Sequence record: PP216084
Length of the DNA stretch: 64,000 bases
From: Escherichia phage vB_EcoS_HZ_ZJUN2
Direction: 5' to 3' (one strand)
The notes beneath the pieces were generated by a model that ran no database searches, was not told the origin of the DNA, and worked only from the letters and a program-made list of their open reading frames with translations. Positions 44,453 to 59,139 of this stretch are shown here, piece by piece; position 1 is the stretch's first letter, and every line of letters starts with the position of its first letter. A program made the position numbers and the translations under genes.

Positions 44453-44731
44453 ATGCGGATTTATAACTCAAATTCACTAGGATTTAAACCATTGAGAAAA
44501 CGTGCACAATCACCTCGTCAAATAAGAAAGGCTAATATTGGTGAACCAGAAACACGTCTTCCACCCCCTCCAGAACAACGTTTAGTTTATCTGGATGAAG
44601 AATTAGCTGAACGCGAAAGAAAAGCTCAAGAAGAGATTGAGCGTAAGAAAATGTGTACTGCTCCAGCGTATAATAAAGGAGCGTATCAATATGTTTCCGA
44701 TGCAGAACAAGCCAAGATGGTTGGTAGATAA
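44453..44731 (+). CDS. hypothetical protein
   Basis: 92-aa ORF with GAGGAGGG RBS. Confidence 0.5.
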   Translation: MRIYNSNSLGFKPLRKRAQSPRQIRKANIGEPETRLPPPPEQRLVYLDEELAERERKAQEEIERKKMCTAPAYNKGAYQYVSDAEQAKMVGR

Positions 44732-44747: not shown

Positions 44748-44776
44748 TTGCTAAACGCTTCAAATTCTCGTATAAT
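44748..44776 (+). promoter_or_regulatory. T5-type promoter
   Basis: TTGCTA - 17 bp - TATAAT followed by ATACTTCATAAATTGATAAAC. Confidence 0.65.
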
Positions 44777-44814: not shown

Positions 44815-45330
44815 ATGGCTAAGCAAAAAAACGCAAAAACTCAAGCAGCTACTACAGTTAAAACTTTCCCGCAGACTGAGGCTAACCGCAAAGCTCGTCT
44901 GGAACGCCACCTGCGCAAGCATCCTACTGATGCTCAAGCTGCACAGGCACTGAATCGTCCGGCTCCGATTCGTCAAAAGCCGAAGGCTAAGAATGCTACT
45001 CGTTCTGTAACCCGCCTTGTGACCTATGTACAGGGTTATGGCCACAAATCTGTTCCAGTAACACTGAGTTTCAATGCTGGAGCTGAATTGTTCTCTCGTA
45101 ATGGCATGGCCATGAAAGATTATGAGAAAGCAGTTAACCAGAAACGCAAGCCAACGGCAGATCTGCTTCGTGACACTCGTGGACAGTTTGGCTCTGTTAA
45201 GCCAAATATCTTTGGCGTAGAGTATAGTAAAGATAGTGTTCGTGCTCTGTGTTACGGTGTAGGCATTAAGTTCACTGGTGATTCTGCTCGTAAATCTGCT
45301 AAACCAGCTCGTAAACGTAAAGCGAAGTAA
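44815..45330 (+). CDS. highly basic hypothetical protein (possible nucleic-acid-binding protein)
   Basis: 171 aa, Lys/Arg-rich termini. Confidence 0.5.
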   Translation: MAKQKNAKTQAATTVKTFPQTEANRKARLERHLRKHPTDAQAAQALNRPAPIRQKPKAKNATRSVTRLVTYVQGYGHKSVPVTLSFNAGAELFSRNGMAMKDYEKAVNQKRKPTADLLRDTRGQFGSVKPNIFGVEYSKDSVRALCYGVGIKFTGDSARKSAKPARKRKAK

Positions 45331-45371
45331 TAGATAGGAGGGGCTTTCGCCCCTCATAGTTTGGAGAAACT

Positions 45372-45608
45372 ATGCGTAATTTTGTAGTAAAGAATGATTT
45401 TAACCGTGCTAGCACCCATAAGTCCGCTAGAGATTATACAAGACTTTCTAGTCATGAGGTAATGGACACCTGTTATGAAGAGCTGGAAGGTAGCTGGAAT
45501 GAATGGCCCAACTTCTCTATGGAAGAAAACTGGGATGTCAGTGAGGATATGCTTCCTGGTTTTAAAGACCCCAAGAAGTGGGAGTCTATTAAAGAGACAG
45601 CTCTTTAA
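45372..45608 (+). CDS. hypothetical acidic protein
   Basis: 78-aa ORF. Confidence 0.45.
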   Translation: MRNFVVKNDFNRASTHKSARDYTRLSSHEVMDTCYEELEGSWNEWPNFSMEENWDVSEDMLPGFKDPKKWESIKETAL

Positions 45609-45636
45609 TAGTTTTCTACACAATAAAGGATAAGTT

Positions 45637-46338
45637 ATGAAAGTAAAACCATTTGGTATGCTAGATATTGAATCTCTAGGAACTCCAGGAGATTGTGGTA
45701 CTACTCATATCGTAATGCCTTCTTTCGCTTTTGTGGCTATGCATGGGATTGATAAAGACCCTGACTTAGTATTTGCTACTTTGGATGTGCAGGATCAGCT
45801 TAATTCTGGTGCCAAAGTTACAGCATCTACTCTAGCATTCTGGATGGATCAAGCTAAAAATAGCCCGTCTGCTATTCACATTATGGAAGCTATGAAGGAA
45901 CGTAATCCAAAACTGATTGCCTTCCAAAATGGTAAACATCATTGCACTAATAAATTAGGCTCAAACTATGCTGCCTTCTCTATGGCTCAAAATATTATGG
46001 AGTTGGCTCTAGGCGAAAATGCTTTGTATTATGGCAATGGCCCAGAGTTTGATATGACTATCTACTCTGCAAACACGTTCCATGCTGGAACCAATGAAGA
46101 GGTAGTTCCGTGGAAATTCTGGAATTTAGGCAATGTTCGATCTCTTCGTAATCTCTGGATGCAAGCTGGTTATAGTTACAAAGATCTAGAGGCTGAAGGT
46201 ATTAGCTGGGCAAAAGCTAAAATGGAGAAGATGGACACCATTCGTTATGGGATCTATCCGGTTAAGCACGACCCAGCATTCGATGCCCTAGTTGAGGGCT
46301 ATTGTGTTGCAGCTATGATCGAAAAAATGAAAATTTGA
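45637..46338 (+). CDS. putative DEDDh-family 3'-5' exonuclease (DexA-like)
   Basis: 233 aa; N-terminal LDIESLG (Exo I D-x-E) and C-terminal HDPAFDA (Exo III H…D) patterns. Confidence 0.5.
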   Translation: MKVKPFGMLDIESLGTPGDCGTTHIVMPSFAFVAMHGIDKDPDLVFATLDVQDQLNSGAKVTASTLAFWMDQAKNSPSAIHIMEAMKERNPKLIAFQNGKHHCTNKLGSNYAAFSMAQNIMELALGENALYYGNGPEFDMTIYSANTFHAGTNEEVVPWKFWNLGNVRSLRNLWMQAGYSYKDLEAEGISWAKAKMEKMDTIRYGIYPVKHDPAFDALVEGYCVAAMIEKMKI

Positions 46339-46339: not shown

Positions 46340-46368
46340 TTGCTTCCGGCTCCAAAATTCTGTATAAT
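46340..46368 (+). promoter_or_regulatory. T5-type promoter
   Basis: TTGCTT - 17 bp - TATAAT followed by ATATTCATAAATTTGAGAAAAC. Confidence 0.65.
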
Positions 46369-46409: not shown

Positions 46410-46592
46410 ATGCCAGTATCTAAAAATGTTCGTAAAAATGGTAAGAAAGCTACTCGTAATCTGGGTATCCGTCGTATGGCTGAACGTCAATCAGGTGTCC
46501 AGAAAATCTTTGATCTGCTAAATCGTGCTAACCCTAAAATTGATAACAATAACGATACTGTTCTGCGCACTCTGCTGGCAATTGGTCTGTAA
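46410..46592 (+). CDS. small basic hypothetical protein
   Basis: 60-aa ORF with AAAGGAAAAAC RBS. Confidence 0.5.
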   Translation: MPVSKNVRKNGKKATRNLGIRRMAERQSGVQKIFDLLNRANPKIDNNNDTVLRTLLAIGL

Positions 46593-46645: not shown

Positions 46646-47284
46646 ATGACTACTCGTATCTCTAAAACTCGCGCTCTGGCAACTATCAAATCTCTGGAAG
46701 CTAAAATCCGTAAAGCTACTGAACAGCAGCTTCTGATCGCTGTTGGCGAAGGTAAGGATAAAAACCAGGTTGTAGTTGGCGCTGCAATCGAAGTAGCTGA
46801 TCTGTCTACTCGTATTAAGGCAGATTTCCAATCTCTCCTGGATATGATGTCCCAGCGTGATCGTATCAAAGCCGCTCTGATTAAGAGCAATGCGGAAACA
46901 GTAGTTGAGATTGGTTCTCGTAAGATGACTGTTGCGGAAGCAATTGAAGCTAAGCGTTCTATGGAACTTAAAGCCCAACTGCTGGCTAATATGCGTAAGC
47001 AGTTCCATGCCGCTACGGTTAAGTTTAATACGCAGAAAGCACAGTTTGATGCTAAATATGAGCGTTTGCAGGATAGCATGGCTACCCGCGATAAGAAAAC
47101 TTCCGAAGATGAAGTTAAAATGCAGCTCAACCTGCTGGAACTCAAGAATACTCCATTCTTGATTGATCCGCTGGAACTGGAAAAGCTGATTAAGCAGCAT
47201 GACGAGGAATATCAGGACTTTGCAACAAATGTTGACTTTGTTCTGTCCGAGTCTAACGCCTCTACCTTCATTGAAGTAGAGTAA
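46646..47284 (+). CDS. hypothetical coiled-coil protein
   Basis: 212 aa; AGGAAGCAAAT RBS; the longer antisense ORFs over the same region were rejected. Confidence 0.55.
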   Translation: MTTRISKTRALATIKSLEAKIRKATEQQLLIAVGEGKDKNQVVVGAAIEVADLSTRIKADFQSLLDMMSQRDRIKAALIKSNAETVVEIGSRKMTVAEAIEAKRSMELKAQLLANMRKQFHAATVKFNTQKAQFDAKYERLQDSMATRDKKTSEDEVKMQLNLLELKNTPFLIDPLELEKLIKQHDEEYQDFATNVDFVLSESNASTFIEVE

Positions 47285-47726: not shown

Positions 47727-48550
47727 ATGGGTAAATTACAAAAACAAATACTACCATATATAGATTATATTCGAGAAATTATAGAGTATAATCCTTATAC
47801 CGGTAAATTATTTTATAAGCCTAATAAATACAAGAATAAAACTTGGCACACCCTATATGCTGGGAGAGAGAGATATGTAGTAAGAACTCTGATGGGTATA
47901 TCAGAGTTAGTTTGCTCTTAGATAACAAACCCACAATTATTTATGGACACCGAATAGCGTGGTTGCTACATTATGGTGAAGAGCCGCCTCATATGATCGA
48001 CCATATAAATACCATACCGTGGGATAACAGAATTATTAATTTAAGAGAGACAAATTTTAAGTTAAATAGAATTAATACTAATAAAACCATAGGTGTAGAA
48101 CTCCTCCCAGAGGGTTTTGTATATAGCATTACATTAGATGGAAAGTTCTTCGTATCTCCTGGCTTCACCACTTTCGAACAAGCTAAAGGGGAAAGAGAAA
48201 AACTAGTAAATGGCTTATGTAACGCAGAAATTGGGAAGCAGACCAATATCCTAATAGACGATGTTAGAAATCTACCTGAAATGTCTATTATTTGTCGTAC
48301 AGTTGTATGTGCGCTAGAATTATCAGACGCGTTTAGTTTCACAGGCTCATACCTATTTATGGACTCAGATCTAGGAGATCCAGAGGTACAAGGAAAAGAT
48401 TTATTAGATCATATACTATTTTTAGGTCAAAGACCTTTAAAAGTGGTTTTAGTAACATCTAACCCCGTTGACGCAGAGTACATGAGAGGTACTCTTACAT
48501 CTTATGGATACAGAGAAAATCCCAATAGATTAGAATATGATCTATTTTAA
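47727..48550 (+). pseudogene. HNH homing endonuclease gene split by a -1 frameshift at a (GA)n tract
   Basis: N-terminal part in frame 0 (47727-47921) and HNH-containing part (…DGYIRVSLLL…YGHRIAWLLHYGEEPPHMIDHINTIPWDNRIINLRE) in the -1 frame (47843-48550); overlap contains GGGAGAGAGAGA (47862-47873). Confidence 0.55.
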
Positions 48551-49731: not shown

Positions 49732-49954
49732 ATATTCATAAATTAGGGAACAGCGAGCCGATTACGCTGAATGCAGAATCCCAACCGGAGCGCATTGAAT
49801 AGAGTCGGTGGGTTAGTTGTAAAACTAGTACACAGGGGGCGGCAATCCCGGTTAGTGGCTAGAACGTGTAAAATGAGGCGTCTGAAACCTCTCCCCTAAA
49901 CTCTTCTCTAATTTATAAATAGTGGGGTGTGGAAATCACTTATGTAGTAACACT

Positions 49955-50026
49955 GCCGATCTAGTATAAACGGTATTATCAAGCCGTAACTGGTGGAAGA
50001 TGTAGGTTCGAATCCTACGATCGGTA
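49955..50026 (+). other. tRNA-like element with aberrant anticodon arm (possible pseudo-tRNA)
   Basis: 7-bp acceptor pairing GCCGATC/GATCGGT and perfect T-arm GTAGG-TTCGAAT-CCTAC, but no 5-bp anticodon stem with U33 and no encoded CCA. Confidence 0.3.
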
Positions 50027-50527
50027 AGAACTGGATAACTGGTGCTTTTAACGTAAAAGCTTCCGAGGTTAGTTGCGCACTGCCTAAACCACGCGGTAGT
50101 TGGTTCCAGACTAACCAACCAGTCTGCTGAATAGTTTTATTACGATTTAACTATGTCCAGGCTAAAGAAGAACTTTAGAAGGTATTCTAGGTAGTGAAGT
50201 TTTTCCTCCATATCGGAGTAGTTTTTCAAGCTACCAACAAAGTGGGAAATGCTGACATGAGAGATGTCACTAATGGTGCACAATAGCACAGGTAATTCGC
50301 GATAACTCCTGTTGAGTAGCAGCAAAAGGCGGGAAGTCATGACCCCAAGCCTAACCGAGTCCTCAATATACCGCAGGACATAACCACTAAGTCACCCTGA
50401 CTTAAACTGGAAAATAATAGACGTTACTGTATTTTGTCTTGAAATACTTAATGAGTGAGACTTATGACTCTCCCGGTATCGTCTGTATTTTTAAGAGTTT
50501 TTACGAGAGTTCTTAAAAATACTTAAA

Positions 50528-50602
50528 CGGGGTGTAGTCTAAGGGAGAGGCAGGAGTCTTCTAAATTCCTTTATGCAGGTTCGAATCCTGTCACCTCGGC
50601 CA
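50528..50602 (+). tRNA. tRNA-Arg (anticodon TCT)
   Basis: Hand-folded cloverleaf: acceptor CGGGGTG/CACCTCG, anticodon loop CTTCTAA, T-loop TTCGAAT, encoded CCA. Confidence 0.65.
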
Positions 50603-50636
50603 ATTTTATTAACTGTAACTAAAACAAAGGAAATAT

Positions 50637-51584
50637 ATGTTTGCTACTAAAAACACTAAAGAACTGACTTATGAGCAAAAATTGATGCGTAATATCAAAC
50701 GTTGGGGTATTGGTGTTGCAGTTGGTTTGGTAGGTTTAGTTCTGGCCCTTAACTCCTATACTGTGGTTCAAGACGGTACTGTTAAAACCCAGACTTTCCT
50801 GGGTAAAGTTGACCCTAGCCCAGTATTACCAGGCTTTCATATTGTAAATCCTTTTGCTTCTTTCGATACTTTTAGTACTAAAGATATTGCTGTAAAATTA
50901 GATAAACTTCAGGTTCCTAGCCAGGATAAGTTTAAATCCACTGTTGACCTGACTGTTATGTTGCAGTTTGATGGTTCTAAGGCACCGATCAACCGTATTA
51001 ATGCAGGTACTCAGGATCAGGCGTTAGACAAATATGTAACTGAAAAATTACTGTCTACCATCCGTGAGTTTGGTAAGTCTGTACCTAAAGCACAAGATTT
51101 GTTTGATGCTAAAATTCAAGCACAATTACAAACTGCAATTCAACAGGAAGTTGAAGAGTATGCACGCCCTTATGGTTACACAGTTAAGCAAGTGTTCCTT
51201 CAGGATATCACATTACCACCGGTAATTATGGAACAGGTACAGAATACCAAAGTTCGTGAAGAACAAGTTAATGCTGCGAAAGCTGAATTGGCTCGTGTTG
51301 AACAAGAAGCACAGCAGAAGGTTAAACAAGCAGAAGCAGATCGTGAAGCTCGTAACAACCAAGCTATTGCAAACGAACGTGATGCAGATGCTAAACTGTA
51401 TGCAGCTAAGAAAGAAGCCGAAGCTAACGCCGCTCTGCAACGTACTATTACTCCTGAGATGATTCGCTGGAAACAACTAGAAGTTGAAATGACTCGTGCT
51501 CAGAAGTATCAAGGTGGTGTGCCGCAAACAGTAGTTGGCACTGGGTACGATGGCCGGATGATTATGGATATGCGTAACAAGTAA
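50637..51584 (+). CDS. SPFH/band-7 (prohibitin-like) membrane protein
   Basis: 315 aa; N-terminal TM helix WGIGVAVGLVGLVLAL; Ala/Glu/Gln-rich coiled coil. Confidence 0.6.
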   Translation: MFATKNTKELTYEQKLMRNIKRWGIGVAVGLVGLVLALNSYTVVQDGTVKTQTFLGKVDPSPVLPGFHIVNPFASFDTFSTKDIAVKLDKLQVPSQDKFKSTVDLTVMLQFDGSKAPINRINAGTQDQALDKYVTEKLLSTIREFGKSVPKAQDLFDAKIQAQLQTAIQQEVEEYARPYGYTVKQVFLQDITLPPVIMEQVQNTKVREEQVNAAKAELARVEQEAQQKVKQAEADREARNNQAIANERDADAKLYAAKKEAEANAALQRTITPEMIRWKQLEVEMTRAQKYQGGVPQTVVGTGYDGRMIMDMRNK

Positions 51585-51608
51585 TTCCCACACGTAATAT
51601 TCGAAGTA

Positions 51609-51648
51609 AGCCCTGTGTTCCCTGGAGAGCGCAGGGCTTTTCTGTTTT
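51609..51648 (+). terminator. intrinsic terminator
   Basis: Stem AAGCCCTG/CAGGGCTT followed by TTTTCTGTTTT. Confidence 0.7.
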
Positions 51649-51810
51649 AAGGTAGAGGATAAGTGTGTCTCTTTGGTCACTCAGCTATGACAAATACTTT
51701 ACACTATATCACATTGAAAATCAAGTGGGGATAACAATTTTGGGGTCTATCCACTTACCTGCTACCATTAAGCATCCTGTTATTTTCCTCTAAAAAGTTA
51801 AAAAATTCAA

Positions 51811-51839
51811 TTGCTTGAATGCTAAATTCTCTGTATAAT
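51811..51839 (+). promoter_or_regulatory. T5-type promoter
   Basis: TTGCTT - 17 bp - TATAAT followed by ATATTTATAAATTTGAGAGAGG. Confidence 0.65.
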
Positions 51840-51869
51840 ATATTTATAAATTTGAGAGAGGAATCTAGT

Positions 51870-52388
51870 ATGACTGTTGATGAACTAACAGAACATCTCT
51901 TATCTAGAGGGTTTGATACAGATAAGTATCATTGCTGGTTAAGCCAGGAAGGATGGCTAACAGTCCCGTTGTATGACTTCTCTGGGATGTTGAGAGGCTA
52001 TCAAACTTATAATCCTTCTGCTCCAAAAGGTCATGGTAAGTGTCCCTTTGAAGCTAAATATTTTACTTATTCTACTACCCAGTGTGTATGGGGATTAGAA
52101 ACTCTCAATGGAGATGAAAAAGTAGTATTGATTGCTGAATCTGTATTTAAGGCAGTTGCGTTACATAACGCTGGTTATCCAGCCCTGGCAATGTTGGGTT
52201 CTTCCCCCGGAAAAGCATTATTAAAGCAATTGAAATTATTACCTTTTAAATTGGTAGCTGTAGGAGATAATGATCCTGCGGGTGAAAAATTTGCTAGAAA
52301 ATTAAACGGCTTTGTTTCTCCTGTAGATGTAGATGAGATGTCTACCGAAAACTTGAAAAATTTTCTTGCTATGAAGCTAAATTTCTAA
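51870..52388 (+). CDS. small Toprim-domain protein
   Basis: Start at the ATG behind GAGAGAGGAATC; VVLIAESVFKAVAL…VAVGDNDPAGEK Toprim acidic motifs. Confidence 0.55.
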   Translation: MTVDELTEHLLSRGFDTDKYHCWLSQEGWLTVPLYDFSGMLRGYQTYNPSAPKGHGKCPFEAKYFTYSTTQCVWGLETLNGDEKVVLIAESVFKAVALHNAGYPALAMLGSSPGKALLKQLKLLPFKLVAVGDNDPAGEKFARKLNGFVSPVDVDEMSTENLKNFLAMKLNF

Positions 52389-52394
52389 TATAAT
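52366..52394 (+). promoter_or_regulatory. T5-type promoter overlapping the 3' end of the Toprim gene
   Basis: TTGCTA - 17 bp - TATAAT followed by ATATTTATAAATTCGGAAG. Confidence 0.6.
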
Positions 52395-52408
52395 ATATTT
52401 ATAAATTC

Positions 52409-52497
52409 GGAAGAATAGCATAACGGTATTGCAGCAGATTGCTAATCTGTCGGTTTGAAATATAGCCTTGTGGGTTCGATTCCCACTTCTTCCGCCA
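52409..52497 (+). tRNA. tRNA-Ser (anticodon GCT), long variable arm
   Basis: Acceptor GGAAGAA/TTCTTCC, anticodon loop TTGCTAA, 19-nt variable arm, T-loop TTCGATT, discriminator G, CCA. Confidence 0.7.
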
Positions 52498-52503
52498 AAT
52501 TCT

Positions 52504-52581
52504 GGTTCTCAAGCTCATATGGTATGAGCACCCAGCTCATAACTGGAAGGTACGTAGGTTCGAATCCTCGGGGAGCCACCA
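52504..52581 (+). tRNA. tRNA-Met-like (anticodon CAT)
   Basis: Acceptor GGTTCTC/GGGAGCC, D-stem GCTC/GAGC, anticodon loop CTCATAA, CCA; T-stem has only 3 clean pairs. Confidence 0.55.
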
Positions 52582-52604
52582 ACTTAATTAGAAAGTAGTA
52601 AACT

Positions 52605-53288
52605 ATGAGAACTGATATACTCGATAGAAAGGAAGAAATAACTCAGTGGATAGCTCAGGGAAAATCTAAAGCAGAGATAGCAAGAATGCTATCTTGTGCC
52701 TCGAATACTCTAGAAGCATATTTAGGAAAACTAGGGATAATAATTACTCCTACTAATAGGCAGCAGGATAATAAATATAAGTCTGCAACAGAGTATTTAT
52801 ATAATGGCAGTCCTATCTCTTCCTATAGACTAAAGAATAAAATTCTTAACGAGGGACTAAAACCACATAAATGTGAGGGTTGCGGACTAGAAAGCTGGTT
52901 AAATAAACCAATTCCCTTAGAACTCGAGCATAAAGATGGAGACCACTATAATAATGAGTGGGACAACTTAGCCCTCCTATGCCCAAATTGTCATGCACTA
53001 ACACCTACTCATGCAGGCAAAAATATTGGCAGGTATACAGAAAGGGTGGTAAATACATGTGCTATTTGTCATTGCGAAATTAGCCCAAAGGCAACGCACT
53101 GTAAATCATGTACCCCGAAAGAACTAACTATAAATCCAGATATTACTGCGGAGCAAATAGAGTATTGGGTATCTAAGTATTCCTGGGTTCGTGCCTCCAA
53201 AGAATTAGGATTATCTGACACGGGGTTAAGAAAAAGATATACGTCCTTAACAGGAAAAGATCCTAAAAGTATTAAGAAAAGTAGGTAG
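52605..53288 (+). CDS. HNH homing endonuclease with N-terminal HTH and shared C-terminal module
   Basis: CEGCG…ELEHKDGDHYNNEWDNLALLCPNCHA; C-terminal ELGLSDTGLRKRYTSL also present in 55476-56057. Confidence 0.7.
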   Translation: MRTDILDRKEEITQWIAQGKSKAEIARMLSCASNTLEAYLGKLGIIITPTNRQQDNKYKSATEYLYNGSPISSYRLKNKILNEGLKPHKCEGCGLESWLNKPIPLELEHKDGDHYNNEWDNLALLCPNCHALTPTHAGKNIGRYTERVVNTCAICHCEISPKATHCKSCTPKELTINPDITAEQIEYWVSKYSWVRASKELGLSDTGLRKRYTSLTGKDPKSIKKSR

Positions 53289-53317
53289 TATAATTAACAC
53301 CAAATTAAGGAAATAAG

Positions 53318-53488
53318 ATGTATAGACATCCACCTCCGCCAACACGTCGTTCTAGAGAAGTTATTCTCATGGAATTGACTAAAAACTTCAAGGCAACTCT
53401 TGAAGATAGAGATCTAGGCACGGATGAAGATATTGATTTTATTTGTAGACTATTAAAGATGAAACTGGAGAAACAACATGGCTAATCC
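53318..53488 (+). CDS. small hypothetical protein
   Basis: 56-aa ORF with AAGGAAATAAG RBS. Confidence 0.35.
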
Positions 53489-53684
53489 TGAAATTACCGC
53501 ACAACGTTTCATGCTTAAAGGCATGATTGCTGAGGCAGGTATAACTCAAGAGGTTGCAGATTTTCATAAGCAATTTCTTGACATTATAACTCTAGCTAAA
53601 GAGACTGGAGAAAAAGAACACGGTGCAGCAATTATGGCTATAACTCTTATTAGTCTAGACTTGGCAGAAGAATCTGGAGTTTAG
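53478..53684 (+). CDS. hypothetical protein
   Basis: 68-aa ORF. Confidence 0.45.
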   Translation: MANPEITAQRFMLKGMIAEAGITQEVADFHKQFLDIITLAKETGEKEHGAAIMAITLISLDLAEESGV

Positions 53685-53714
53685 CTCCTCCGAACAGAAT
53701 TTTTAAAAATGTAC

Positions 53715-53744
53715 TTGCCTTTTGCTTTAAATTTCTGGTATAAT
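53715..53744 (+). promoter_or_regulatory. T5-type promoter
   Basis: TTGCCT - 18 bp - TATAAT followed by AGTTATATAAATTGATGAAGG. Confidence 0.6.
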
Positions 53745-53774
53745 AGTTATATAAATTGATGAAGGAGTTAACGA

Positions 53775-54050
53775 ATGCAAAATCGTGTTATAGCAACTGG
53801 TATTGAAAGTGCAATCTGTAAATCCTGGGAAGGCTGGGAAGGTGAGATTGAATGGCTTTATTTCTACGATGTAGAACTTCTGCCGGAAATTAAAGCTAAA
53901 TGTGTTGAAGCTGGCATGGCTCCAGATGCAAAAGCTGATATTGATATTTCAATGTCTGAACTTAAAGGTCGTGTAATTACTGTTAGTGATGGGGGCGAAG
54001 AAGTTTTCGAACTTCCATTCTCCTTAACTGTCGCTCCTAAGTTCGACTAA
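53775..54050 (+). CDS. hypothetical protein
   Basis: 91-aa ORF with GAAGGAG RBS. Confidence 0.5.
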   Translation: MQNRVIATGIESAICKSWEGWEGEIEWLYFYDVELLPEIKAKCVEAGMAPDAKADIDISMSELKGRVITVSDGGEEVFELPFSLTVAPKFD

Positions 54051-54086
54051 CTAATACAGCACTGAGCAAGTTCTTTAAAATTTGAC

Positions 54087-54115
54087 TTGCTCAGTGCCTT
54101 AAAACTTGGTATAAT
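54087..54115 (+). promoter_or_regulatory. T5-type promoter whose -35 lies in the 3' arm of a 12-bp hairpin (54059-54097)
   Basis: TTGCTC - 17 bp - TATAAT; inverted repeat AGCACTGAGCAAG…CTTGCTCAGTGC. Confidence 0.55.
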
Positions 54116-54249
54116 AGTTATCTAATTTGGAAAGTTCTTTTTAAGGTAGTTCTTACTTTAGCAGAGTAAACTTTCGGCAGATGGCGGCAGCCACTTTACC
54201 GATATTCCATAGTCAGTGCCGCAAACACTGGCTACCTTAAAGAGAATTT

Positions 54250-54337
54250 GGGCGTTTATTCCGTAAGTGGTAGCGGAGGGGAATGTAAATCCCTGGTCAT
54301 TGCGACTCGAGTGGTTCGACTCCATTAACGCCCACCA
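54250..54337 (+). tRNA. tRNA-Tyr (anticodon GTA), long variable arm
   Basis: Acceptor GGGCGTT/AACGCCC, anticodon stem GGGGA/TCCCT, loop ATGTAAA, CCA. Confidence 0.65.
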
Positions 54338-54345
54338 AATTTAAT

Positions 54346-54420
54346 GCACCTATCGTCTAATGGTTAGGACATCAGGATTTCAATCTGAGAATCGGAGTTC
54401 AATTCTCCGTGGGTGTACCA
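54346..54420 (+). tRNA. tRNA-Glu (anticodon TTC)
   Basis: Acceptor GCACCTA/TGGGTGT, anticodon loop ATTTCAA, T-arm CGGAG-TTCAATT-CTCCG, CCA. Confidence 0.65.
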
Positions 54421-54428
54421 ATTTCTGC

Positions 54429-54505
54429 ATTCCTAGAGTGTTACTGGACAGCATGTCGGTCTCCAAAACCGTACGGTCTAGGTTCGAGTCCTAGTAGGTT
54501 TGCCA
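54429..54505 (+). tRNA. tRNA-Trp (anticodon CCA), two U-U mismatches in the acceptor stem
   Basis: Anticodon loop CTCCAAA, T-arm CTAGG-TTCGAGT-CCTAG, CCA; acceptor ATTCCTA/TAGGTTT pairs at 5 of 7 positions. Confidence 0.5.
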
Positions 54506-54511
54506 AAATTT

Positions 54512-54586
54512 GCACCTTTAGCTGAGATGGATTAGCGCTTGCCTGAAGAGCTTGAAAGGTTGGATCGTTACCAACGGGGTGCACCA
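54512..54586 (+). tRNA. tRNA-Phe (anticodon GAA)
   Basis: Acceptor GCACCTT/GGGGTGC, D-stem GCTG/TAGC, anticodon loop CTGAAGA, CCA; anticodon stem has two U-U pairs, T-loop ATCGTTA is atypical. Confidence 0.55.
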
Positions 54587-54603
54587 AATTGAAGGAGCTG
54601 CTG

Positions 54604-54876
54604 ATGCATCCTGAAAACTTCTTTATTTACTGCGCGGATAAGTCGCTGAAACGTAGAATTAACAAAGTCTATCATTATCGTGCTAGTCAACAGCCTTATG
54701 TATACGCTTTTGACGGTGATCACATTCCACTAGAACAATTATCTTGTGATTACATGATATTGAAGAACTTTGACGAGACGAAGATCTCAAGCGTTTATAA
54801 TCGACAGAATCCATTAACGTGGAAATATAAGAAGAAAAAGAAAGGCATCAAATTCTTAAAAAATATAGTTGCTTAG
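54604..54876 (+). CDS. hypothetical protein
   Basis: ATG at 54604 behind GAAGGAG, directly after tRNA-Phe. Confidence 0.45.
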   Translation: MHPENFFIYCADKSLKRRINKVYHYRASQQPYVYAFDGDHIPLEQLSCDYMILKNFDETKISSVYNRQNPLTWKYKKKKKGIKFLKNIVA

Positions 54877-54897
54877 TTTCCAAAAGTTCTGTATAAT
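54869..54897 (+). promoter_or_regulatory. T5-type promoter
   Basis: TTGCTT - 17 bp - TATAAT followed by AATTACATAAATTGAACTGGAG. Confidence 0.6.
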
Positions 54898-54945
54898 AAT
54901 TACATAAATTGAACTGGAGAAGCAACATGATAGAACAAGATAAAT

Positions 54946-55021
54946 CGACCGTTGGCTGAATGGCTTAGGCGAAGGATTGCAAATCCTTTTTATGTGAGTT
55001 CAAATCTCATGCGGTCGTCCA
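54946..55021 (+). tRNA. tRNA-Cys (anticodon GCA)
   Basis: Acceptor CGACCGT/GCGGTCG, anticodon stem AAGGA/TCCTT, loop TTGCAAA, T-arm GTGAG-TTCAAAT-CTCAT, CCA. Confidence 0.65.
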
Positions 55022-55023
55022 AT

Positions 55024-55170
55024 TTGCTGAAAGAATTGTTAAATCAATTCAGGCACGCGTAGGAACACTGTCTCCGTAATTGAAAGATGAGGCACGGTTT
55101 GGAGAGGTATGCCGCTACACGCTACGGTGCTAACTCCGTCTAGGTGAAAATCCTAGTCAGCAATGTAAAT
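55024..55170 (+). other. ~147-nt tRNA-like/structured RNA candidate closed by an acceptor-like helix
   Basis: 5' TTGCTGA pairs perfectly with 3' TCAGCAA; internal hairpins GAATTG…CAATTC and CTAGG-TGAAAAT-CCTAG; no ORF. Confidence 0.3.
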
Positions 55171-55173
55171 TTA

Positions 55174-55259
55174 GGGTCGTTGGCTGAACGGTTTAAGCGC
55201 CGGACTGTTAATCCGTATCCGCAAGGATAAAGTAGGTTCAACTCCTACACGGCCCGCCA
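55174..55259 (+). tRNA. tRNA-Asn (anticodon GTT) with an unusually long variable arm
   Basis: Acceptor GGGTCGT/ACGGCCC, anticodon arm CGGA-CTGTTAA-TCCG, 15-nt variable stem-loop ATCC-GCAA-GGAT, T-arm GTAGG-TTCAACT-CCTAC, discriminator G, CCA. Confidence 0.6.
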
Positions 55260-55286
55260 AATTCACTAACAACTGAGGAAATAGAT

Positions 55287-55472
55287 ATGACAACTCGTGC
55301 AATTGCTCGACTAGAAGCTGATCGTGATAATATGATTAATAATATTAAGGTTCGTGGTAATATTATTAAGGCTCTGAAAGCTGAACTTCTTGAGGAACTT
55401 CAAGGTCAAGTAGAGCGTCGTGAAGCTCTAAAAGAGGTTGAGGAAGCTATCGAAAAACTCAAGGCTGAATAA
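55287..55472 (+). CDS. hypothetical coiled-coil protein
   Basis: 61-aa ORF with GAGGAAATAG RBS. Confidence 0.5.
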   Translation: MTTRAIARLEADRDNMINNIKVRGNIIKALKAELLEELQGQVERREALKEVEEAIEKLKAE

Positions 55473-55475
55473 ATT

Positions 55476-56057
55476 ATGCACGGAATATCCTTACCCATTC
55501 CAGGGTTTGAGGAGTACTTAGTAAGTTTGGATGGGTTAGTATTTAGTATCAAATCAAACAAAATACTAACCCCAATAACCAGTAATTACGGATACTTATC
55601 TATACGTCTCCATAAAAATGGTCAACAGAGAAATACCGGTGTACATAGGATTTTAGCATGTGCATTTAAGAAATTACCAAGTCTAGACTCTGAACTAGAA
55701 GTTGACCATATTAACACAGACATTACTTATTGGGGTCTTAATAACTTACAAGTGCTCACAAAAGAGCAGCATCTAGAAAAGACTTTAAAAGATAAAGGAT
55801 TTAGTAAACTAAACCATGATAATTGTTGTAAGGATTGTGGTAAAGCTATTTCTTTAAAAGCTGAAAAATGTCAGGAGTGCTCTTCACATAAACCAAAAGA
55901 TATCTCTATAACTAAAGAAATAATCGAGGTTACAGTAAGAGAGCTAGGCTGGTCAGGTGCAGGGAGAAAGTTAAGTTATTCAGATAATGGGTTGCGTAAA
56001 AGATACACTTCTTTAGGAGGCAATCCTAAAGAACTTAAAAAGTTAAAGGTACTATAG
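55476..56057 (+). CDS. HNH homing endonuclease
   Basis: …YGYLSIRL…HRILACAF…EVDHINTDITYWGLNNLQVLTKEQH; C-terminal ELGWSGAGRKLSYSDNGLRKRYTSL module. Confidence 0.7.
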   Translation: MHGISLPIPGFEEYLVSLDGLVFSIKSNKILTPITSNYGYLSIRLHKNGQQRNTGVHRILACAFKKLPSLDSELEVDHINTDITYWGLNNLQVLTKEQHLEKTLKDKGFSKLNHDNCCKDCGKAISLKAEKCQECSSHKPKDISITKEIIEVTVRELGWSGAGRKLSYSDNGLRKRYTSLGGNPKELKKLKVL

Positions 56058-56122
56058 TCTAACGGTTAGGATACTCCCCTGTCACGGGAGAGGTAGGGTT
56101 TCGATTACCCTTAGTACCGCCA
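56048..56122 (+). tRNA. tRNA-Asp (anticodon GTC)
   Basis: Acceptor GGTACTA/TAGTACC, anticodon stem CTCCC/GGGAG, loop CTGTCAC, T-arm AGGGT-TTCGATT-ACCCT, CCA; 5' end overlaps the last codons of the HNH gene. Confidence 0.7.
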
Positions 56123-56139
56123 AATAAGGTAGGTTAGCT

Positions 56140-56298
56140 ATGGAACGTAGGGAGTTTACTCCAGAAGAGATAGAGCAGATAAAAGAATCTGCTATGAAAA
56201 ATGCTAGAATATCTCTGTCACTGGAAGGTATCATTATTAGTGATGTAAACTTTGAAAAAATCAAAGCCATAGCTGATGAACTGGAAAAAGTAATTTAA
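56140..56298 (+). CDS. small hypothetical protein
   Basis: 52-aa ORF with AAGGTAGG RBS, between tRNA-Asp and tRNA-Lys. Confidence 0.4.
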   Translation: MERREFTPEEIEQIKESAMKNARISLSLEGIIISDVNFEKIKAIADELEKVI

Positions 56299-56299
56299 T

Positions 56300-56375
56300 A
56301 CATCCATAGCTCAATGGTTAGAGCTACCGCCTCTTAAGCGGAGGGTTCTAGGTTCAAGTCCTAGTGGGTGTACCA
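56300..56375 (+). tRNA. tRNA-Lys (anticodon CTT)
   Basis: Acceptor ACATCCA/TGGGTGT, D-stem GCTC/GAGC, anticodon loop CTCTTAA, T-arm CTAGG-TTCAAGT-CCTAG, CCA. Confidence 0.6.
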
Positions 56376-56401
56376 AATTAAACTAGCACGAGAAATATGC
56401 T

Positions 56402-56749
56402 ATGATTAATGCTAAAGAAGAATTGTTACTTGCCCTAAAGAATACTAATTCTGAAGTTAAGTGTATTAAGATAGAATTCGGTTATTATGGGGATAAAGAA
56501 GTTTGGGTATTACCCGTAGGTTATACAGAAAAAGATATTGAAGATTTTCTAAATAATCTAGACTTTAAATATGATTCTGGTTATGGTGGGCAATTGCTTT
56601 ATGGTAACGTGTGGTTTACTGATGGAACTTGGTTAGAACGCGGTGAATACGACGGTTCTGAATGGTGGGAATATAAGGCTACGCCAGCAATCCCAGAAGA
56701 ATGCCGAACAATTAATGGTGAAGTAGATCATACATTACTACTAAATTAA
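56402..56749 (+). CDS. hypothetical protein
   Basis: 115-aa ORF between tRNA-Lys and tRNA-Pro. Confidence 0.5.
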   Translation: MINAKEELLLALKNTNSEVKCIKIEFGYYGDKEVWVLPVGYTEKDIEDFLNNLDFKYDSGYGGQLLYGNVWFTDGTWLERGEYDGSEWWEYKATPAIPEECRTINGEVDHTLLLN

Positions 56750-56759
56750 TAAAAATTAA

Positions 56760-56836
56760 CAGTGCGTAGCTCAGCTTGGTAGAGCGTCTGCTTTGGGAGC
56801 AGAATGTCGCAGGTTCGAGTCCTGCCGCACTGACCA
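56760..56836 (+). tRNA. tRNA-Pro (anticodon TGG)
   Basis: Acceptor CAGTGCG/CGCACTG, D-stem GCTC/GAGC, anticodon stem TCTGC/GCAGA, loop TTTGGGA, CCA. Confidence 0.7.
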
Positions 56837-56936
56837 AACAATTGCGGGTGGGAGGCATAGAGTTCTTCTTAGTCTCATAAGCTAAGTAAGTCCAGGGCAG
56901 TACTGGAACCCGCTACCAATTTCAAGAAAAACTCAT

Positions 56937-56965
56937 TTGCTTAATGCTTAATTTCTTGTTATAAT
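56937..56965 (+). promoter_or_regulatory. T5-type promoter driving an ORF-free ~0.3-kb leader and the Ala/Leu tRNAs
   Basis: TTGCTT - 17 bp - TATAAT followed by ATTTATATAAATTGATGCG. Confidence 0.65.
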
Positions 56966-56971
56966 ATTTAT

Positions 56972-57297
56972 ATAAATTGATGCGAAAATAGCTGCCTAGA
57001 TACCAGGTGTATGACGTCTACACTAGCAGAGCTACCGAAAAAGAGATCCTCAGGATAAACGTCGTAGCAAAATTAGTCTGGTATCCATCAATTTAGTTCA
57101 CTAAGGTATTAGCTCGACCTAGGACTGGCTGCCAAAAAGCACGATCCCTACGACTTGGGAGAAGTTCTAGATTAGTCCACTAGATTCAGCGGCAACTGAA
57201 TAGTGTATTGGGTTTGCGAGATGACGCGGTTCCTTCCGCTCGAAGCGAAGGTGCTGTAGTTACGCCGAGCTAATAGCCTTAGTAAACTAAAGAATTT
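56972..57297 (+). ncRNA. candidate non-coding RNA / structured precursor leader
   Basis: ~325 nt between promoter and tRNA-Ala with no plus-strand ORF longer than 15 codons; local hairpins such as CCTTCCGC-TCGAA-GCGAAGG. Confidence 0.3.
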
Positions 57298-57371
57298 GGG
57301 GATATAGTTTAATGGTAGAACATCTGCTTTGCACGCAGAAGACGAGGGTTCAACTCCCTCTTTCTCCACCA
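57298..57371 (+). tRNA. tRNA-Ala (anticodon TGC) with G3-U70
   Basis: Acceptor GGGGATA/TTTCTCC with the G3-U70 wobble typical of alanine tRNAs; anticodon stem TCTGC/GCAGA, loop TTTGCAC, CCA. Confidence 0.65.
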
Positions 57372-57376
57372 AATTC

Positions 57377-57461
57377 GGGGCTATGCTGGAACTGGTAGAC
57401 AATACGGCCTTAGATTCCGTAGCTTAAATGCGTGGGAGTTCGAGTCTCCCTAGCCCCACCA
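57377..57461 (+). tRNA. tRNA-Leu (anticodon TAG), long variable arm
   Basis: Acceptor GGGGCTA/TAGCCCC, D-loop AACTGGTAGA, anticodon loop CTTAGAT, 13-nt variable arm, discriminator A, CCA. Confidence 0.65.
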
Positions 57462-57585
57462 AATTTGATGGTCAGAGTAAATTAAACCTACTATCTCGGT
57501 TGAGCTGTTTTAATGGGTTCGAATCCCAGCGAGGCGTAACTGCCTGGTGTGATAGAGGCATCATTCCACTAATATTGGAAAACTA

Positions 57586-57816
57586 ATGAAACGAGAATTA
57601 AAAAAATCTTATATAATTAAGATAAATAAGCTAAGAAGTAGGGCAAAAGGATGGCCACTTCGGATATTAATTGCGGATAACCATATTAGATACCATGCGG
57701 AACAACGTCATTATAAACAGTGGGAGTCATACTGCCGCTCAAAAGCAGGTCGTTTAGATGGATCTTATGAGTTTCTATTTGGTAAGAAGCCTACTAGAGT
57801 AGCTTTAGGTAATTAA
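57586..57816 (+). CDS. hypothetical basic protein
   Basis: 76-aa ORF. Confidence 0.45.
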   Translation: MKRELKKSYIIKINKLRSRAKGWPLRILIADNHIRYHAEQRHYKQWESYCRSKAGRLDGSYEFLFGKKPTRVALGN

Positions 57817-57821
57817 TACTT

Positions 57822-57912
57822 GGAAGAGCAAATCGAATTGGCGACGAAAACCGCTTGGAAAGTGGCTGACTGGTAAAACGGCTTGAGAGTTCAAATCTCT
57901 CCTCTTCCGCCA
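57822..57912 (+). tRNA. tRNA-Ser (anticodon GGA, tentative), long variable arm
   Basis: Perfect acceptor GGAAGAG/CTCTTCC, T-arm GAGAG-TTCAAAT-CTCTC, discriminator G, CCA; anticodon loop TTGGAAA closed by 4 pairs. Confidence 0.55.
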
Positions 57913-57919
57913 AACAAAT

Positions 57920-58009
57920 AGAAGGTAGGGCGTAGTGGTACGCAACTAGTCTTGAAAACTAGCCCGCTGTAGTGATACGGTGATGGTTCGACTCCATTAC
58001 CTTCTGCCA
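57920..58009 (+). tRNA. tRNA-Ser (anticodon TGA), long variable arm
   Basis: Acceptor AGAAGGT/ACCTTCT, anticodon stem CTAGT/ACTAG, loop CTTGAAA, discriminator G, CCA. Confidence 0.65.
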
Positions 58010-58025
58010 ACTTATAAGGTAATAT

Positions 58026-58208
58026 ATGTCTTTAACGAAAACTGTGAAGGTTACACTAACTGATGGCACAGAGTTTAGTGCACAAGTAACCTTACTAGAA
58101 GACGGTTATTGGGAAGTATATCTTCCACACGTTAATTCTACTGGTAGAGGATGGACTCAACAACAGGCTATTGTTGATGCTTTAAATGAGGCTTCTGCTG
58201 GTTTATAA
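58026..58208 (+). CDS. hypothetical protein
   Basis: 60-aa ORF. Confidence 0.45.
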   Translation: MSLTKTVKVTLTDGTEFSAQVTLLEDGYWEVYLPHVNSTGRGWTQQQAIVDALNEASAGL

Positions 58209-58215
58209 AAATTCT

Positions 58216-58346
58216 TGGAATATGCCGGAATTGGTAGACGGGACTGCCGAATAGGTTTACTAGGAACATCCACTCCTAGAAATATACCTTAAAAGCGGTT
58301 GAGTTAAATGGTCTAACTCATGAAGGTTCAAGTCCTTCTATTCCTT
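58216..58346 (+). other. ~130-nt tRNA-like element (class-II-like with large insertion, no encoded CCA)
   Basis: 5' TGGAATA pairs at 6 of 7 positions with 3' TATTCCT; D-loop-like ATTGGTAGAC; variable-arm-like hairpin TGAGTT…AACTCA; canonical T-arm GAAGG-TTCAAGT-CCTTC. Confidence 0.3.
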
Positions 58347-58575
58347 GATACATCAATGGCTCAAAGTGTAACGGTGCTATTTGATGCTCTTGGCAAGACT
58401 TCCCCGACATGCGTTCGGGAGTAAGCTGCTAAGACTAGAATAGAAGAGTTTCTGAGAGCCGCCACAATTGAAAATTCGTACTCGTCTTGAGCTGCGTGCA
58501 ATAGGAGATAACTTGATTAGTATTCTAGAACATGCTAATTGAGGAAGGTTTCGCTAACCCTGCGAGTTTTCAATT

Positions 58576-58652
58576 GTGGCTATATCATAATTGGTTAATG
58601 ATCCTGATTGTGAATCAGGCCTATGTGGATTCGAATTCCACTAGCCACCCCA
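58576..58652 (+). tRNA. tRNA-His (anticodon GTG)
   Basis: Acceptor GTGGCTA/TAGCCAC, D-stem TCAT/ATGA, anticodon stem CCTGA/TCAGG, loop TTGTGAA, discriminator C, CCA. Confidence 0.65.
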
Positions 58653-58677
58653 AATTAACTTAAATAGGAAATAAAAT

Positions 58678-58872: not shown

Positions 58873-58885
58873 AGTAAAGAATTAT

Positions 58886-58961: not shown

Positions 58962-58967
58962 AATTAT

Positions 58968-59043: not shown

Positions 59044-59050
59044 AATTAAT

Positions 59051-59125: not shown

Positions 59126-59139
59126 AATAAGGAATCTCT

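What the first reader, a model, noticed from the sequence alone, without database searches (positions are those of the whole stretch)
45637..46338. DEDDh-type 3'-5' exonuclease candidate in the early operon
Exo I-like DIES and Exo III-like HDPAFDA motifs at the expected ends of a 233-aa protein suggest a DnaQ/RNase T-fold exonuclease, possibly a DexA-like nucleotide-salvage enzyme or a signalling-nucleotide-degrading enzyme. It lies among small basic proteins (44815-45330, 46410-46592) of unknown function.
Basis: inference. Interest (0 to 1): 0.45.

Follow-up and report, generated by a model that had tools for sequence, protein, structure and literature searches.

The report
T5.087-type DexA-like 3'-5' exonuclease gene
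The ORF is a real, conserved early gene of a T5-like phage that encodes a DnaQ/RNase T-fold (DEDDh) 3'-5' exonuclease distantly related to phage T4 DexA; public databases already call it "exonuclease" (or, wrongly, "metallopeptidase"), so the finding is correct but ordinary.

Summary
Observation confirmed. Window 45637-46338 (+) is a 233-aa ORF with a Shine-Dalgarno site.

The window is a T5-like phage (Tequintavirus). The ORF is the ortholog of T5.087 (95% aa identity), labelled "exonuclease" in RefSeq and "putative metallopeptidase" in GenBank.

Evidence for the exonuclease reading:
- Pfam PF16473 (Rv2179c-like) scores above its cutoff; PHROG 255 "exonuclease" scores 1.8e-51.
- The five DEDDh residues are invariant down to 20% identity.
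- A profile built without DexA finds DexA at E 4.5e-15, with all catalytic residues aligned.

The metallopeptidase label traces to an 11-residue, non-conserved pattern.

Published CRISPRi-ART data score T5.087 as dispensable in the laboratory.

New detail: the upstream 78-aa gene (T5.088) is fused to the exonuclease in Sugarlandvirus and in metagenomic relatives, so the two probably act together.

Substrate and role are untested. An ssDNA/oligonucleotide exonuclease is the most likely reading. Degradation of cyclic signalling nucleotides is mechanistically disfavoured.

Novelty: already known. Interest: low.

The parts
45637..46338 (+). CDS for a 233-aa DEDDh 3'-5' exonuclease, ortholog of T5.087 (YP_006915 / AAS77133); 26 kDa, pI 5.8
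45626..45630 (+). Shine-Dalgarno-like AAGGA, 6 nt upstream of the ATG
   Evidence: Read directly from the sequence.
45664..45672 (+). Exo I motif codons, D10-I-E12 (two metal-binding carboxylates)
   Evidence: Invariant in A1, A2 and A3. Aligned to DexA D7/E9.
46033..46053 (+). Exo II motif codons, G133-N-G-P-E-F-D139 (third carboxylate, D139)
   Evidence: G135 and D139 are invariant and F138 nearly so. Aligned to DexA D119.
46267..46284 (+). Exo III motif codons, H211-D-P-A-F-D216 (general-base His and fourth carboxylate; the 'h' subtype)
   Evidence: H211 and D216 are invariant. Aligned to DexA H186/D191.
46081..46113 (+). HAGTNEEVVPW (residues 149-159): matches the carboxypeptidase zinc signature pattern and is the probable source of the 'metallopeptidase' label; not a functional motif
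   Evidence: Regex match to the PS00133 pattern, recalled from memory. The T5 record says 'identified by match to InterPro family IPR000834'. H149 and the neighbouring residues are not conserved. No peptidase Pfam hit at E<=1.
45372..45608 (+). T5.088 ortholog: 78 aa, acidic (pI 4.8), with the conserved N-terminal motif MRNFV(A/V)KNDFNRASTHKS (weak DUF7230 match); probable partner of the exonuclease
   Evidence: Fused to the N-terminus of the exonuclease in P0015/17/21/22/24 and in Klebsiella phage Sugarland gp137, 334 aa. Matches the N-terminal part of the PHROG 255 profile at 1e-7. Found in 594 phage records, against 625 for the exonuclease. In the model of the fused protein this part is mostly low-confidence, with one helix.
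44815..45330 (+). T5.089 ortholog: 171 aa, very basic (pI 10.9), DUF7022; first gene of the presumed transcription unit
   Evidence: Pfam PF22887 at 254.5 bits. pI. Scored 'Fit' (p about 0.05) in CRISPRi-ART, whereas T5.088 and T5.087 are 'Not Fit'.
44748..44776 (+). Sigma-70-type promoter-like site TTGCTA-17-TATAAT, at the position of T5 early promoter P-H207
   Evidence: Scan result, 10 of 12 matches. T5 annotates promoter P-H 207 directly upstream of T5.089.
45338..45355 (.). G+C-rich hairpin GAGGGGCTTTCGCCCCTC between T5.089 and T5.088; no clear T-run on the + strand (possible attenuator or RNA-stability element)
46340..46368 (+). TTGCTT-17-TATAAT immediately after the stop codon; corresponds to the promoter annotated in T5 between T5.087 and T5.086, so it marks the end of the unit
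   Evidence: Read from the sequence. T5 promoter feature overlaps the 3' end of T5.087.

Best explanation
The gene encodes a metal-dependent 3'-to-5' exonuclease of the DEDDh (DnaQ/RNase T) superfamily, Pfam family PF16473. It is a distant homologue of phage T4 exonuclease A (DexA).

Shown:
- The ORF is real and under strong purifying selection.
- It has the DEDDh fold, and all five catalytic residues (D10, E12, D139, H211, D216) are invariant and align with the DexA active site.
- It is the T5.087 ortholog, lying in the early region next to nrd, frd, thy and rnh.

Inferred:
- The four carboxylates hold two Mg2+ ions, and H211 activates water. Nucleoside 5'-monophosphates are removed one at a time from a free 3'-OH end.
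- The most likely substrates are single-stranded DNA, 3' tails and oligonucleotides, as for DexA.
- The most likely uses are 3'-end resection and clearing of ssDNA fragments during T5 replication and recombination, and during repair of homing-endonuclease cuts.
- It probably acts together with the upstream 78-aa protein T5.088, which is the N-terminal extension of the same protein in related phages.
- It is an accessory function, not an essential one.

My confidence in the enzyme class is about 0.9. My confidence in the DNA-directed, DexA-like role is about 0.5. The single figure given (0.6) is for the whole statement.
For: - Family scores: Pfam PF16473 above its cutoff; PHROG 255 'exonuclease' at 1.8e-51.
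- Conservation: D10/E12/D139/H211/D216 invariant, together with W69, G135 and R168, in 33-34 sequences.
- Profile test: the DexA-free profile A3 finds DexA at E 4.5e-15 over its full length and finds no other PDB protein significantly. The protein is therefore closer to DexA than to Rv2179c.
- DexA itself is in PF16473 at 79.9 bits. Its catalytic residues and 3'-5' DNA exonuclease activity are published (PMC12153337).
- Context: the neighbourhood is DNA and nucleotide metabolism. An HNH homing endonuclease lies 1.5 kb downstream.
- Partner: fusion of T5.088 with the exonuclease.
- Dispensability: T5.087 and T5.088 are 'Not Fit' in CRISPRi-ART, in the same way that DexA is non-essential in T4.
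- Selection: dN/dS 0.06-0.11.
Against: - I found no biochemical study of T5.087.
- Sugar specificity cannot be read from a DEDDh sequence. The family's namesake Rv2179c is an exoribonuclease, and Foldseek ranks RNase T first.
- Identity to DexA is only about 14%. Pairwise BLAST is not significant, and hhalign against the single DexA sequence gives only 51% probability.
- The host-DNA scavenging role of DexA does not fit T5, where host DNA is degraded pre-early and the bases are excreted.
- The oligomeric state and the interaction with T5.088 are untested.
- The N-terminal T5.088-like part is modelled with low confidence.
Confidence: 0.6

Rival explanations
1. It is an RNase T / Rv2179c-like exoribonuclease. 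It would trim 3' trailers from the phage's own roughly 21 tRNA precursors, or clear short RNA fragments (nanoRNA, primers) during infection.
For: - The Pfam family is named after the exoribonuclease Rv2179c, which has been described as a divergent RNase T ortholog (PMC8628891).
- 21 tRNA genes lie 3.6-14 kb downstream. Twenty of them encode CCA followed by A/T-rich trailers that need exonucleolytic trimming.
- RNase H is encoded 1.3 kb upstream.
Against: - The host RNase T and RNase PH proteins should remain available.
- Knock-down has no fitness cost.
- There is no Pfam RNase_T match.
Confidence: 0.2
2. It is a counter-defence nuclease. It would destroy nucleic-acid products or linear nucleotide signals made by host immune systems, such as retron or DRT single-stranded cDNA, or linear oligonucleotides.
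For: - The gene is dispensable in a defence-poor laboratory host, as expected for an accessory or anti-defence gene.
- In a distant T5-like contig, the fused gene lies directly after NADAR, cREC and Sequestin genes. Sequestin is an experimentally shown anti-Thoeris sponge (10.1101/2025.07.12.664507).
Against: - The evidence is purely circumstantial.
- A DEDDh exonuclease needs a free 3'-OH, so cyclic di- and tri-nucleotides and cADPR isomers are not expected substrates (established two-metal 3'-exonuclease mechanism).
- There is no PADLOC hit.
- The gene is conserved across T5-like phages and sits in a core nucleotide-metabolism block rather than a variable island.
- The similarity to Cap18 is no greater than to any other DEDDh enzyme.
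Confidence: 0.08
3. It is a zinc metallopeptidase, as hundreds of GenBank records label it.
For: The label in T5 AY543070 comes from a match to InterPro IPR000834, the peptidase M14 family. Residues 149-159, HAGTNEEVVPW, fit the carboxypeptidase zinc signature 2 pattern (pattern recalled from memory).
Against: - No peptidase family appears in Pfam even at E<=1.
- There is no HExxH, and the first M14 signature is absent.
- H149 and the rest of the pattern are not conserved among homologues.
- The fold is RNase H-like DEDDh.
- RefSeq and PHROGs have already relabelled it 'exonuclease'.
Confidence: 0.01
4. It is a catalytically inactive DEDDh-fold protein with a structural or binding role, like Maelstrom or Exuperantia.
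Against: All five catalytic residues are present and invariant across the family. That is the opposite of what is seen in degenerate members.
Confidence: 0.02

Closest known systems
Phage T4 exonuclease A (DexA; PDB 8kel/8ken; PMC12153337)
   Same: - Same Pfam family, PF16473.
- The only significant PDB hit of a DexA-free family profile: E 4.5e-15, full length.
- Similar size, 227 versus 233 aa.
- The DEDDh residues and the PxKFW...R segment align.
- Both are non-essential early phage genes.
   Different: - Only about 14% identity; pairwise BLAST is not significant.
- The T5 type has its own insertions: a helix plus beta-hairpin at about residues 77-106 and a helical segment at about 177-205.
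- T5 DNA is unmodified, so DexA's discrimination of 5hmC DNA has no counterpart.
- T5 degrades host DNA before this gene is expressed and excretes the bases, so a scavenging role is doubtful.
- The T5 type has a T5.088 partner or N-terminal extension. The small gene upstream of T4 dexA (dexA.1) is unrelated.
Mycobacterium tuberculosis Rv2179c (PDB 4hec), founding member of Pfam PF16473 (Abendroth et al. 2014, cited in PMC8628891)
   Different: - Rv2179c is a minimal 155-168-aa domain without the insertions.
- It is not found by the T5.087-family profile at E<=1.
- It is a cellular exoribonuclease, not a phage protein.
E. coli RNase T and Pol III epsilon (DnaQ)
   Different: - No significant sequence-profile match: RNase T E 0.7-0.9, and no Pfam RNase_T hit.
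- TM-scores are only about 0.5-0.6.
Klebsiella phage Sugarland gp137 and metagenomic relatives (324-334 aa)
   Same: Orthologous position between rnh and the endolysin-like gene. The exonuclease domain is 36-41% identical.
   Different: There, one polypeptide carries the T5.088-like N-terminal region and the exonuclease. In the window, and in T5 and Epseptimavirus, these are two genes in different frames, 28 nt apart, each with its own ribosome-binding site.

Membership tests
DEDDh (DnaQ-like / RNase T-like) 3'-5' exonuclease superfamily | RNase H-like alpha/beta fold shared by DEDD exonucleases | tested here: met
DEDDh (DnaQ-like / RNase T-like) 3'-5' exonuclease superfamily | Exo I D-x-E, Exo II D, and Exo III H-x4-D (the 'h' subtype), in that order | tested here: met
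   D10, E12, D139, H211 and D216 are invariant in A1, A2 and A3. They align to DexA D7/E9/D119/H186/D191, which correspond to epsilon D12/E14/D103/H162/D167.
DEDDh (DnaQ-like / RNase T-like) 3'-5' exonuclease superfamily | Divalent-metal-dependent 3'-to-5' exonuclease activity | not testable with these tools
   Needs purified protein and labelled substrates.
Pfam PF16473 (3'-5' exoribonuclease Rv2179c-like domain) | Score at or above the curated gathering threshold (27 bits) | tested here: met
   32.9 bits, E 6.5e-08, residues 8-180 on profile positions 4-148 of 177. Homologues carry a precomputed PF16473 assignment.
T4 DexA-type exodeoxyribonuclease | Detectable homology over the full length, with the active site aligned | tested here: met
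T4 DexA-type exodeoxyribonuclease | Acts on DNA (ssDNA/dsDNA 3' ends) and forms dimers/tetramers | not testable with these tools
   These properties are published for DexA. There is no assay or multimer prediction for T5.087 here.
T4 DexA-type exodeoxyribonuclease | 5hmC-recognition residues (DexA W152 and D169) | tested here: inconclusive
   W162 aligns with DexA W152 in the PWKFW segment, but this Trp is common throughout the family. The region around D169 is not reliably alignable. T5 DNA has no modified bases, so the feature is not expected to matter.
Peptidase M14 / zinc metallopeptidase (the GenBank label) | Match to a peptidase family model and conserved zinc ligands | tested here: not met
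   No peptidase family at E<=1 in Pfam. There is only an 11-residue pattern match at residues 149-159, and its His is not conserved. The fold is DEDDh.
Known defence-associated or anti-defence nucleases (Cap18 and other PADLOC models) | Sequence match to a curated defence-system model | tested here: not met
RNase T (Pfam PF00929 RNase_T) | Match to the RNase_T family model | tested here: not met
   Not reported at E<=1. Profile against RNase T chains gives E 0.7-0.9. The similarity is structural only.

The most novel reading that the evidence does not exclude
T5.088 and T5.087 are the two halves of a split DexA-like nuclease. In this reading, the strongly conserved N-terminal motif of T5.088 (MRNFVAKNDFNRASTHKS), which is predicted to be disordered, docks the nuclease onto a host or phage partner. 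The pair would then act as a counter-defence or recombination factor, for example by destroying single-stranded cDNA made by retron or DRT systems, or by resecting ends made by homing endonucleases, rather than as a salvage enzyme.
Probability: 0.12. Interest if true: 0.55.

Novelty: already known. Interest (0 to 1): 0.2.

Why it matters
It matters little for discovery. The gene is the T5.087 ortholog, and RefSeq, PHROGs and the CRISPRi-ART re-annotation already call it an exonuclease.

The practical value is in curation:
- The "metallopeptidase" label carried by hundreds of T5-like genomes is wrong and can be traced to a chance pattern match. The label even spread to the unrelated small upstream gene.
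- T5.087 can now be tied to the solved T4 DexA structure.
- The split/fused relationship with T5.088 gives a concrete, testable partner for an otherwise anonymous conserved phage protein.

T5 lacks a described stand-alone 3'-5' exonuclease. A biochemical test would therefore fill a small gap in the picture of T5 DNA metabolism.

Tried and rejected
- **Sequence search of the PDB.** With the single protein it gave only chance hits to designed armadillo repeats. With the narrow profile A1 it gave only chance PCNA hits at E>1. Both were rejected. The broader profile A3 was needed.
- **Circular profile.** Profile A2 contained DexA itself, so its hit is circular and was not used as evidence.
- **NCBIfam:** no family.
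- **PADLOC:** no family for the exonuclease or its neighbours.
- **Literature.** Searches for T5.087, and for T5 with exonuclease/metallopeptidase or DexA, found no functional study. The Rv2179c paper (PMC3900960) is not held. The phage Tn-seq preprint does not cover T5.
- **T4 DexA.1.** I asked whether this small gene upstream of dexA is a T5.088 counterpart. There is no similarity.
- **Other copies of the T5.088 motif.** A search for the N-terminal motif elsewhere in the window found none.
- **Structure of the fused protein.** The model of P0022 was meant to show how the T5.088-like part packs on the nuclease. That part came out at low confidence (pLDDT <50 for residues 1-18, 48-54 and 64-80), so no docking mode can be claimed.
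- **Alignment A4.** It misplaced the C-terminal tails of the short T5.088 homologues onto the Exo III region. I treated this as an alignment artefact and replaced it with A5.

Full report
**1. What is there**

Window 45637-46338 (+) is an uninterrupted 233-codon ORF with an ATG start and a TGA stop. AAGGA lies 6 nt upstream of the ATG.

The protein is 26 kDa with pI 5.8. It also contains a clear Exo II motif, GNGPEFD, at 133-139.

**2. Where the window comes from**

A 3-kb stretch around the ORF is 96-98% identical to many T5-like phages (Demerecviridae, Tequintavirus), and 445 phage records match it.

The ORF is the ortholog of T5.087, with 95.3% aa identity. It lies in the T5 early region, in this gene order: nrdB, frd, thy, rnh, T5.090, T5.089, T5.088, T5.087, T5.086, T5.085.

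T5 annotates the named early promoter P-H207 upstream of T5.089, and another promoter just after T5.087. The window has TTGCTA-17-TATAAT at 44748-44776 and TTGCTT-17-TATAAT at 46340-46368. T5.089, T5.088 and T5.087 therefore plausibly form one early transcription unit. This is an inference from the annotation and from consensus matches.

A G+C-rich hairpin at 45338-45355 lies between T5.089 and T5.088.

The gene is under strong purifying selection, with dN/dS of 0.06-0.11 against orthologues.

**3. Family and fold**

Family searches:
- Pfam gives one family, PF16473 (Rv2179c-like 3'-5' exoribonuclease domain), at 32.9 bits against a cutoff of 27.
- PHROGs gives phrog_255 'exonuclease' at 1.8e-51.
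- NCBIfam and PADLOC give nothing.

How large the family is:
- A search of 5.8 billion proteins returned 29 relatives, nearly all carrying PF16473.
- An exhaustive profile search of 1.84 billion cluster representatives found only 12 clusters at E<=1e-30 and 38 at E<=1e-10, but 976 at E<=1e-3.
- So this is a narrow subfamily inside a large family.

In alignments reaching 20% identity, the invariant columns are M1, D10, E12, W69, G135, D139, R168, H211 and D216. These include exactly the DEDDh pentad.

The AlphaFold2 model is confident, with pLDDT 91.6 and pTM 0.90.

Structural matches to the model:

| Search | Hit | Score |
|---|---|---|
| Foldseek, PDB | RNase T (best hits) | E 4e-5 |
| Foldseek, viral models | phage proteins named metallopeptidase, exonuclease, DexA or Rv2179c-like | E down to 1.5e-36 (43 hits at E<=0.001) |

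**4.

The test was that profile alignment fails to place the acidic residues in the active site. It does not fail.

A profile of 33 family members that excludes DexA (A3) matches the solved T4 DexA sequence at E 4.5e-15 over its full length. In that alignment, D-I-E-T lies on D7-F-E9-T, F-D139 on F-D119, and H211...D216 on H186...D191. The same columns appear in the MAFFT alignment that includes DexA.

The DexA paper identifies these residues as the catalytic set, equivalent to epsilon D12/E14/D103/H162/D167 (PMC12153337). T4 DexA is itself a PF16473 member at 79.9 bits.

The profile does not find Rv2179c or RNase T significantly. Within the family, the T5 protein is therefore nearer to DexA. 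Pairwise BLAST with DexA is not significant, so the relationship is distant, at about 14% identity.

**5. The 'metallopeptidase' label**

GenBank T5 (AY543070) calls T5.087 'putative metallopeptidase, identified by match to InterPro family IPR000834'. The label has spread to hundreds of records. It has even spread to the separate upstream gene in some genomes.

Residues 149-159, HAGTNEEVVPW, fit the carboxypeptidase zinc-binding signature 2 pattern as I recall it. The arguments against the label are:
- The His and its neighbours are not conserved.
- There is no peptidase Pfam hit even at E<=1.
- The fold is DEDDh.

The label is an artefact. RefSeq (YP_006915) and the CRISPRi-ART re-annotation already say 'exonuclease'.

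**6. The partner gene**

The acidic 78-aa ORF directly upstream (45372-45608, T5.088) begins with MRNFVVKNDFNRASTHKS.

In five metagenomic relatives (P0015, P0017, P0021, P0022, P0024), this sequence is the N-terminus of a 324-334-aa protein whose C-terminal part is the exonuclease. The same is true of Klebsiella phage Sugarland gp137, at 334 aa. The PHROG 255 profile spans both parts: T5.088 matches profile positions 75-147 at 1e-7.

T5.088 homologues occur in 594 phage records, against 625 for the exonuclease. They are otherwise stand-alone proteins of 60-92 aa, many carrying DUF7230.

In the window the two genes are in different frames, 28 nt apart, each with its own ribosome-binding site. 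This is a split/fused gene pair, which argues that the two proteins act together (inference).

A model of the fused protein gives a confident nuclease domain. The N-terminal part is low-confidence, with pLDDT <50 for residues 1-18, 48-54 and 64-80 and one helix at 27-43. The conserved motif may be a docking peptide rather than a folded domain. That is speculation.

**7. What it most likely does**

Mechanism, inferred from the family: two Mg2+ ions are held by D10, E12, D139 and D216. H211 activates water. 5'-mononucleotides are released one at a time from a free 3'-OH.

Substrate is the open question. In favour of DNA:
- The nearest characterised relative, by both sequence profile and structure, is the DNase DexA.
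- The neighbourhood is DNA and nucleotide metabolism.
- T5-like genomes are full of HNH homing endonucleases, one of which lies at 47843-48550. DexA is known to help intron homing.

Against a simple transfer of DexA's salvage role: T5 degrades host DNA in the first minutes, in the pre-early, A1-dependent phase. It excretes the bases, and it has unmodified DNA (10.1101/866236).

In the published genome-wide CRISPRi-ART screen of T5, T5.087 and T5.088 are 'Not Fit', meaning knock-down had no effect. T5.089 is marginally 'Fit' (PMC11879866, supplementary file 16). The nuclease is therefore an accessory function in the laboratory, as DexA is in T4.

**8. Rival explanations**

- **RNA-directed role.** This has real but weaker support. 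The family is named after an RNase. RNase T is the top Foldseek hit. There are 21 tRNA genes nearby, 20 of which encode CCA followed by A/T-rich trailers.
- **Counter-defence role.** This rests only on dispensability and on a distant T5-like contig in which NADAR, cREC and a Sequestin sponge precede the fused gene. Cyclic signalling nucleotides lack a 3'-OH end and are not expected substrates.
- **Metallopeptidase and inactive-fold readings.** Both are excluded by the fold and by the invariant catalytic residues.

**9. Verdict**

The observation and the fold-level interpretation are correct. The gene is a known, publicly annotated but uncharacterised phage exonuclease. Novelty: already known. 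Interest: 0.2.

The modest new points are:
- the explicit link to the T4 DexA structure;
- the explanation of the erroneous metallopeptidase label;
- the T5.088-T5.087 split/fusion relationship.

Noticed in passing
window 45372-45608 (+): The T5.088 ortholog (78 aa, pI 4.8) is a separate gene here. It is the N-terminal extension of the exonuclease in Klebsiella phage Sugarland gp137 and in several metagenomic proteins. Its first 18 residues are almost invariant across T5-like phages, yet they are predicted to be disordered in the fused protein.
   Followed up: yes
window 47727-47921 and 47843-48550 (+): An HNH homing-endonuclease-like sequence (phrog_99) runs in frame into a T5.084-like C-terminal part (phrog_1479). 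A 64-aa ORF in another frame looks like the endonuclease's N-terminus. T5 and phage Tennessee appear to lack this stretch, which I estimate at about 650 nt from the annotated gene spacing. It is probably a homing-endonuclease insertion, possibly frameshifted or decaying.
   Followed up: partly
window 44815-45330 (+): The T5.089 ortholog (DUF7022, 171 aa, pI 10.9, 38 Lys+Arg) is the only gene of this small unit scored 'Fit' in the T5 CRISPRi-ART screen (p about 0.05). It has no known function and is labelled 'virion structural protein' in one RefSeq record, despite lying in the early region.
   Followed up: partly
window 45338-45355: A perfect 7-bp G+C-rich hairpin (GAGGGGC-TTTC-GCCCCTC) lies between T5.089 and T5.088, with no clear T-run on the + strand. 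It may be an attenuator or an RNA-stability element inside the transcription unit.
   Followed up: no
window 49954-60123 (+): There are 21 tRNA genes. Twenty of them encode the 3' CCA, and it is almost always followed directly by A/T-rich trailers, commonly AAT(T). This uniform trailer could be a processing signal.
   Followed up: partly
window 46646-47284 (+), 44453-44731 (+); locus L001: Several early-region genes carry structural labels in public records that their position makes doubtful. T5.085 is labelled 'tail fiber protein' (phrog_1491). In phiLLS RefSeq, T5.090 is 'tail fibers protein' and T5.088 is 'baseplate wedge subunit'.
   Followed up: no
locus L004 3619-6975: A distant T5-like metagenomic contig carries NADAR, cREC_REC, DUF7022 and a Sequestin gene (PF21825, an anti-Thoeris 3'cADPR sponge family) immediately upstream of the fused T5.088-exonuclease gene. 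This suggests that the interval between rnh and the exonuclease accumulates counter-defence genes in some relatives.
   Followed up: partly
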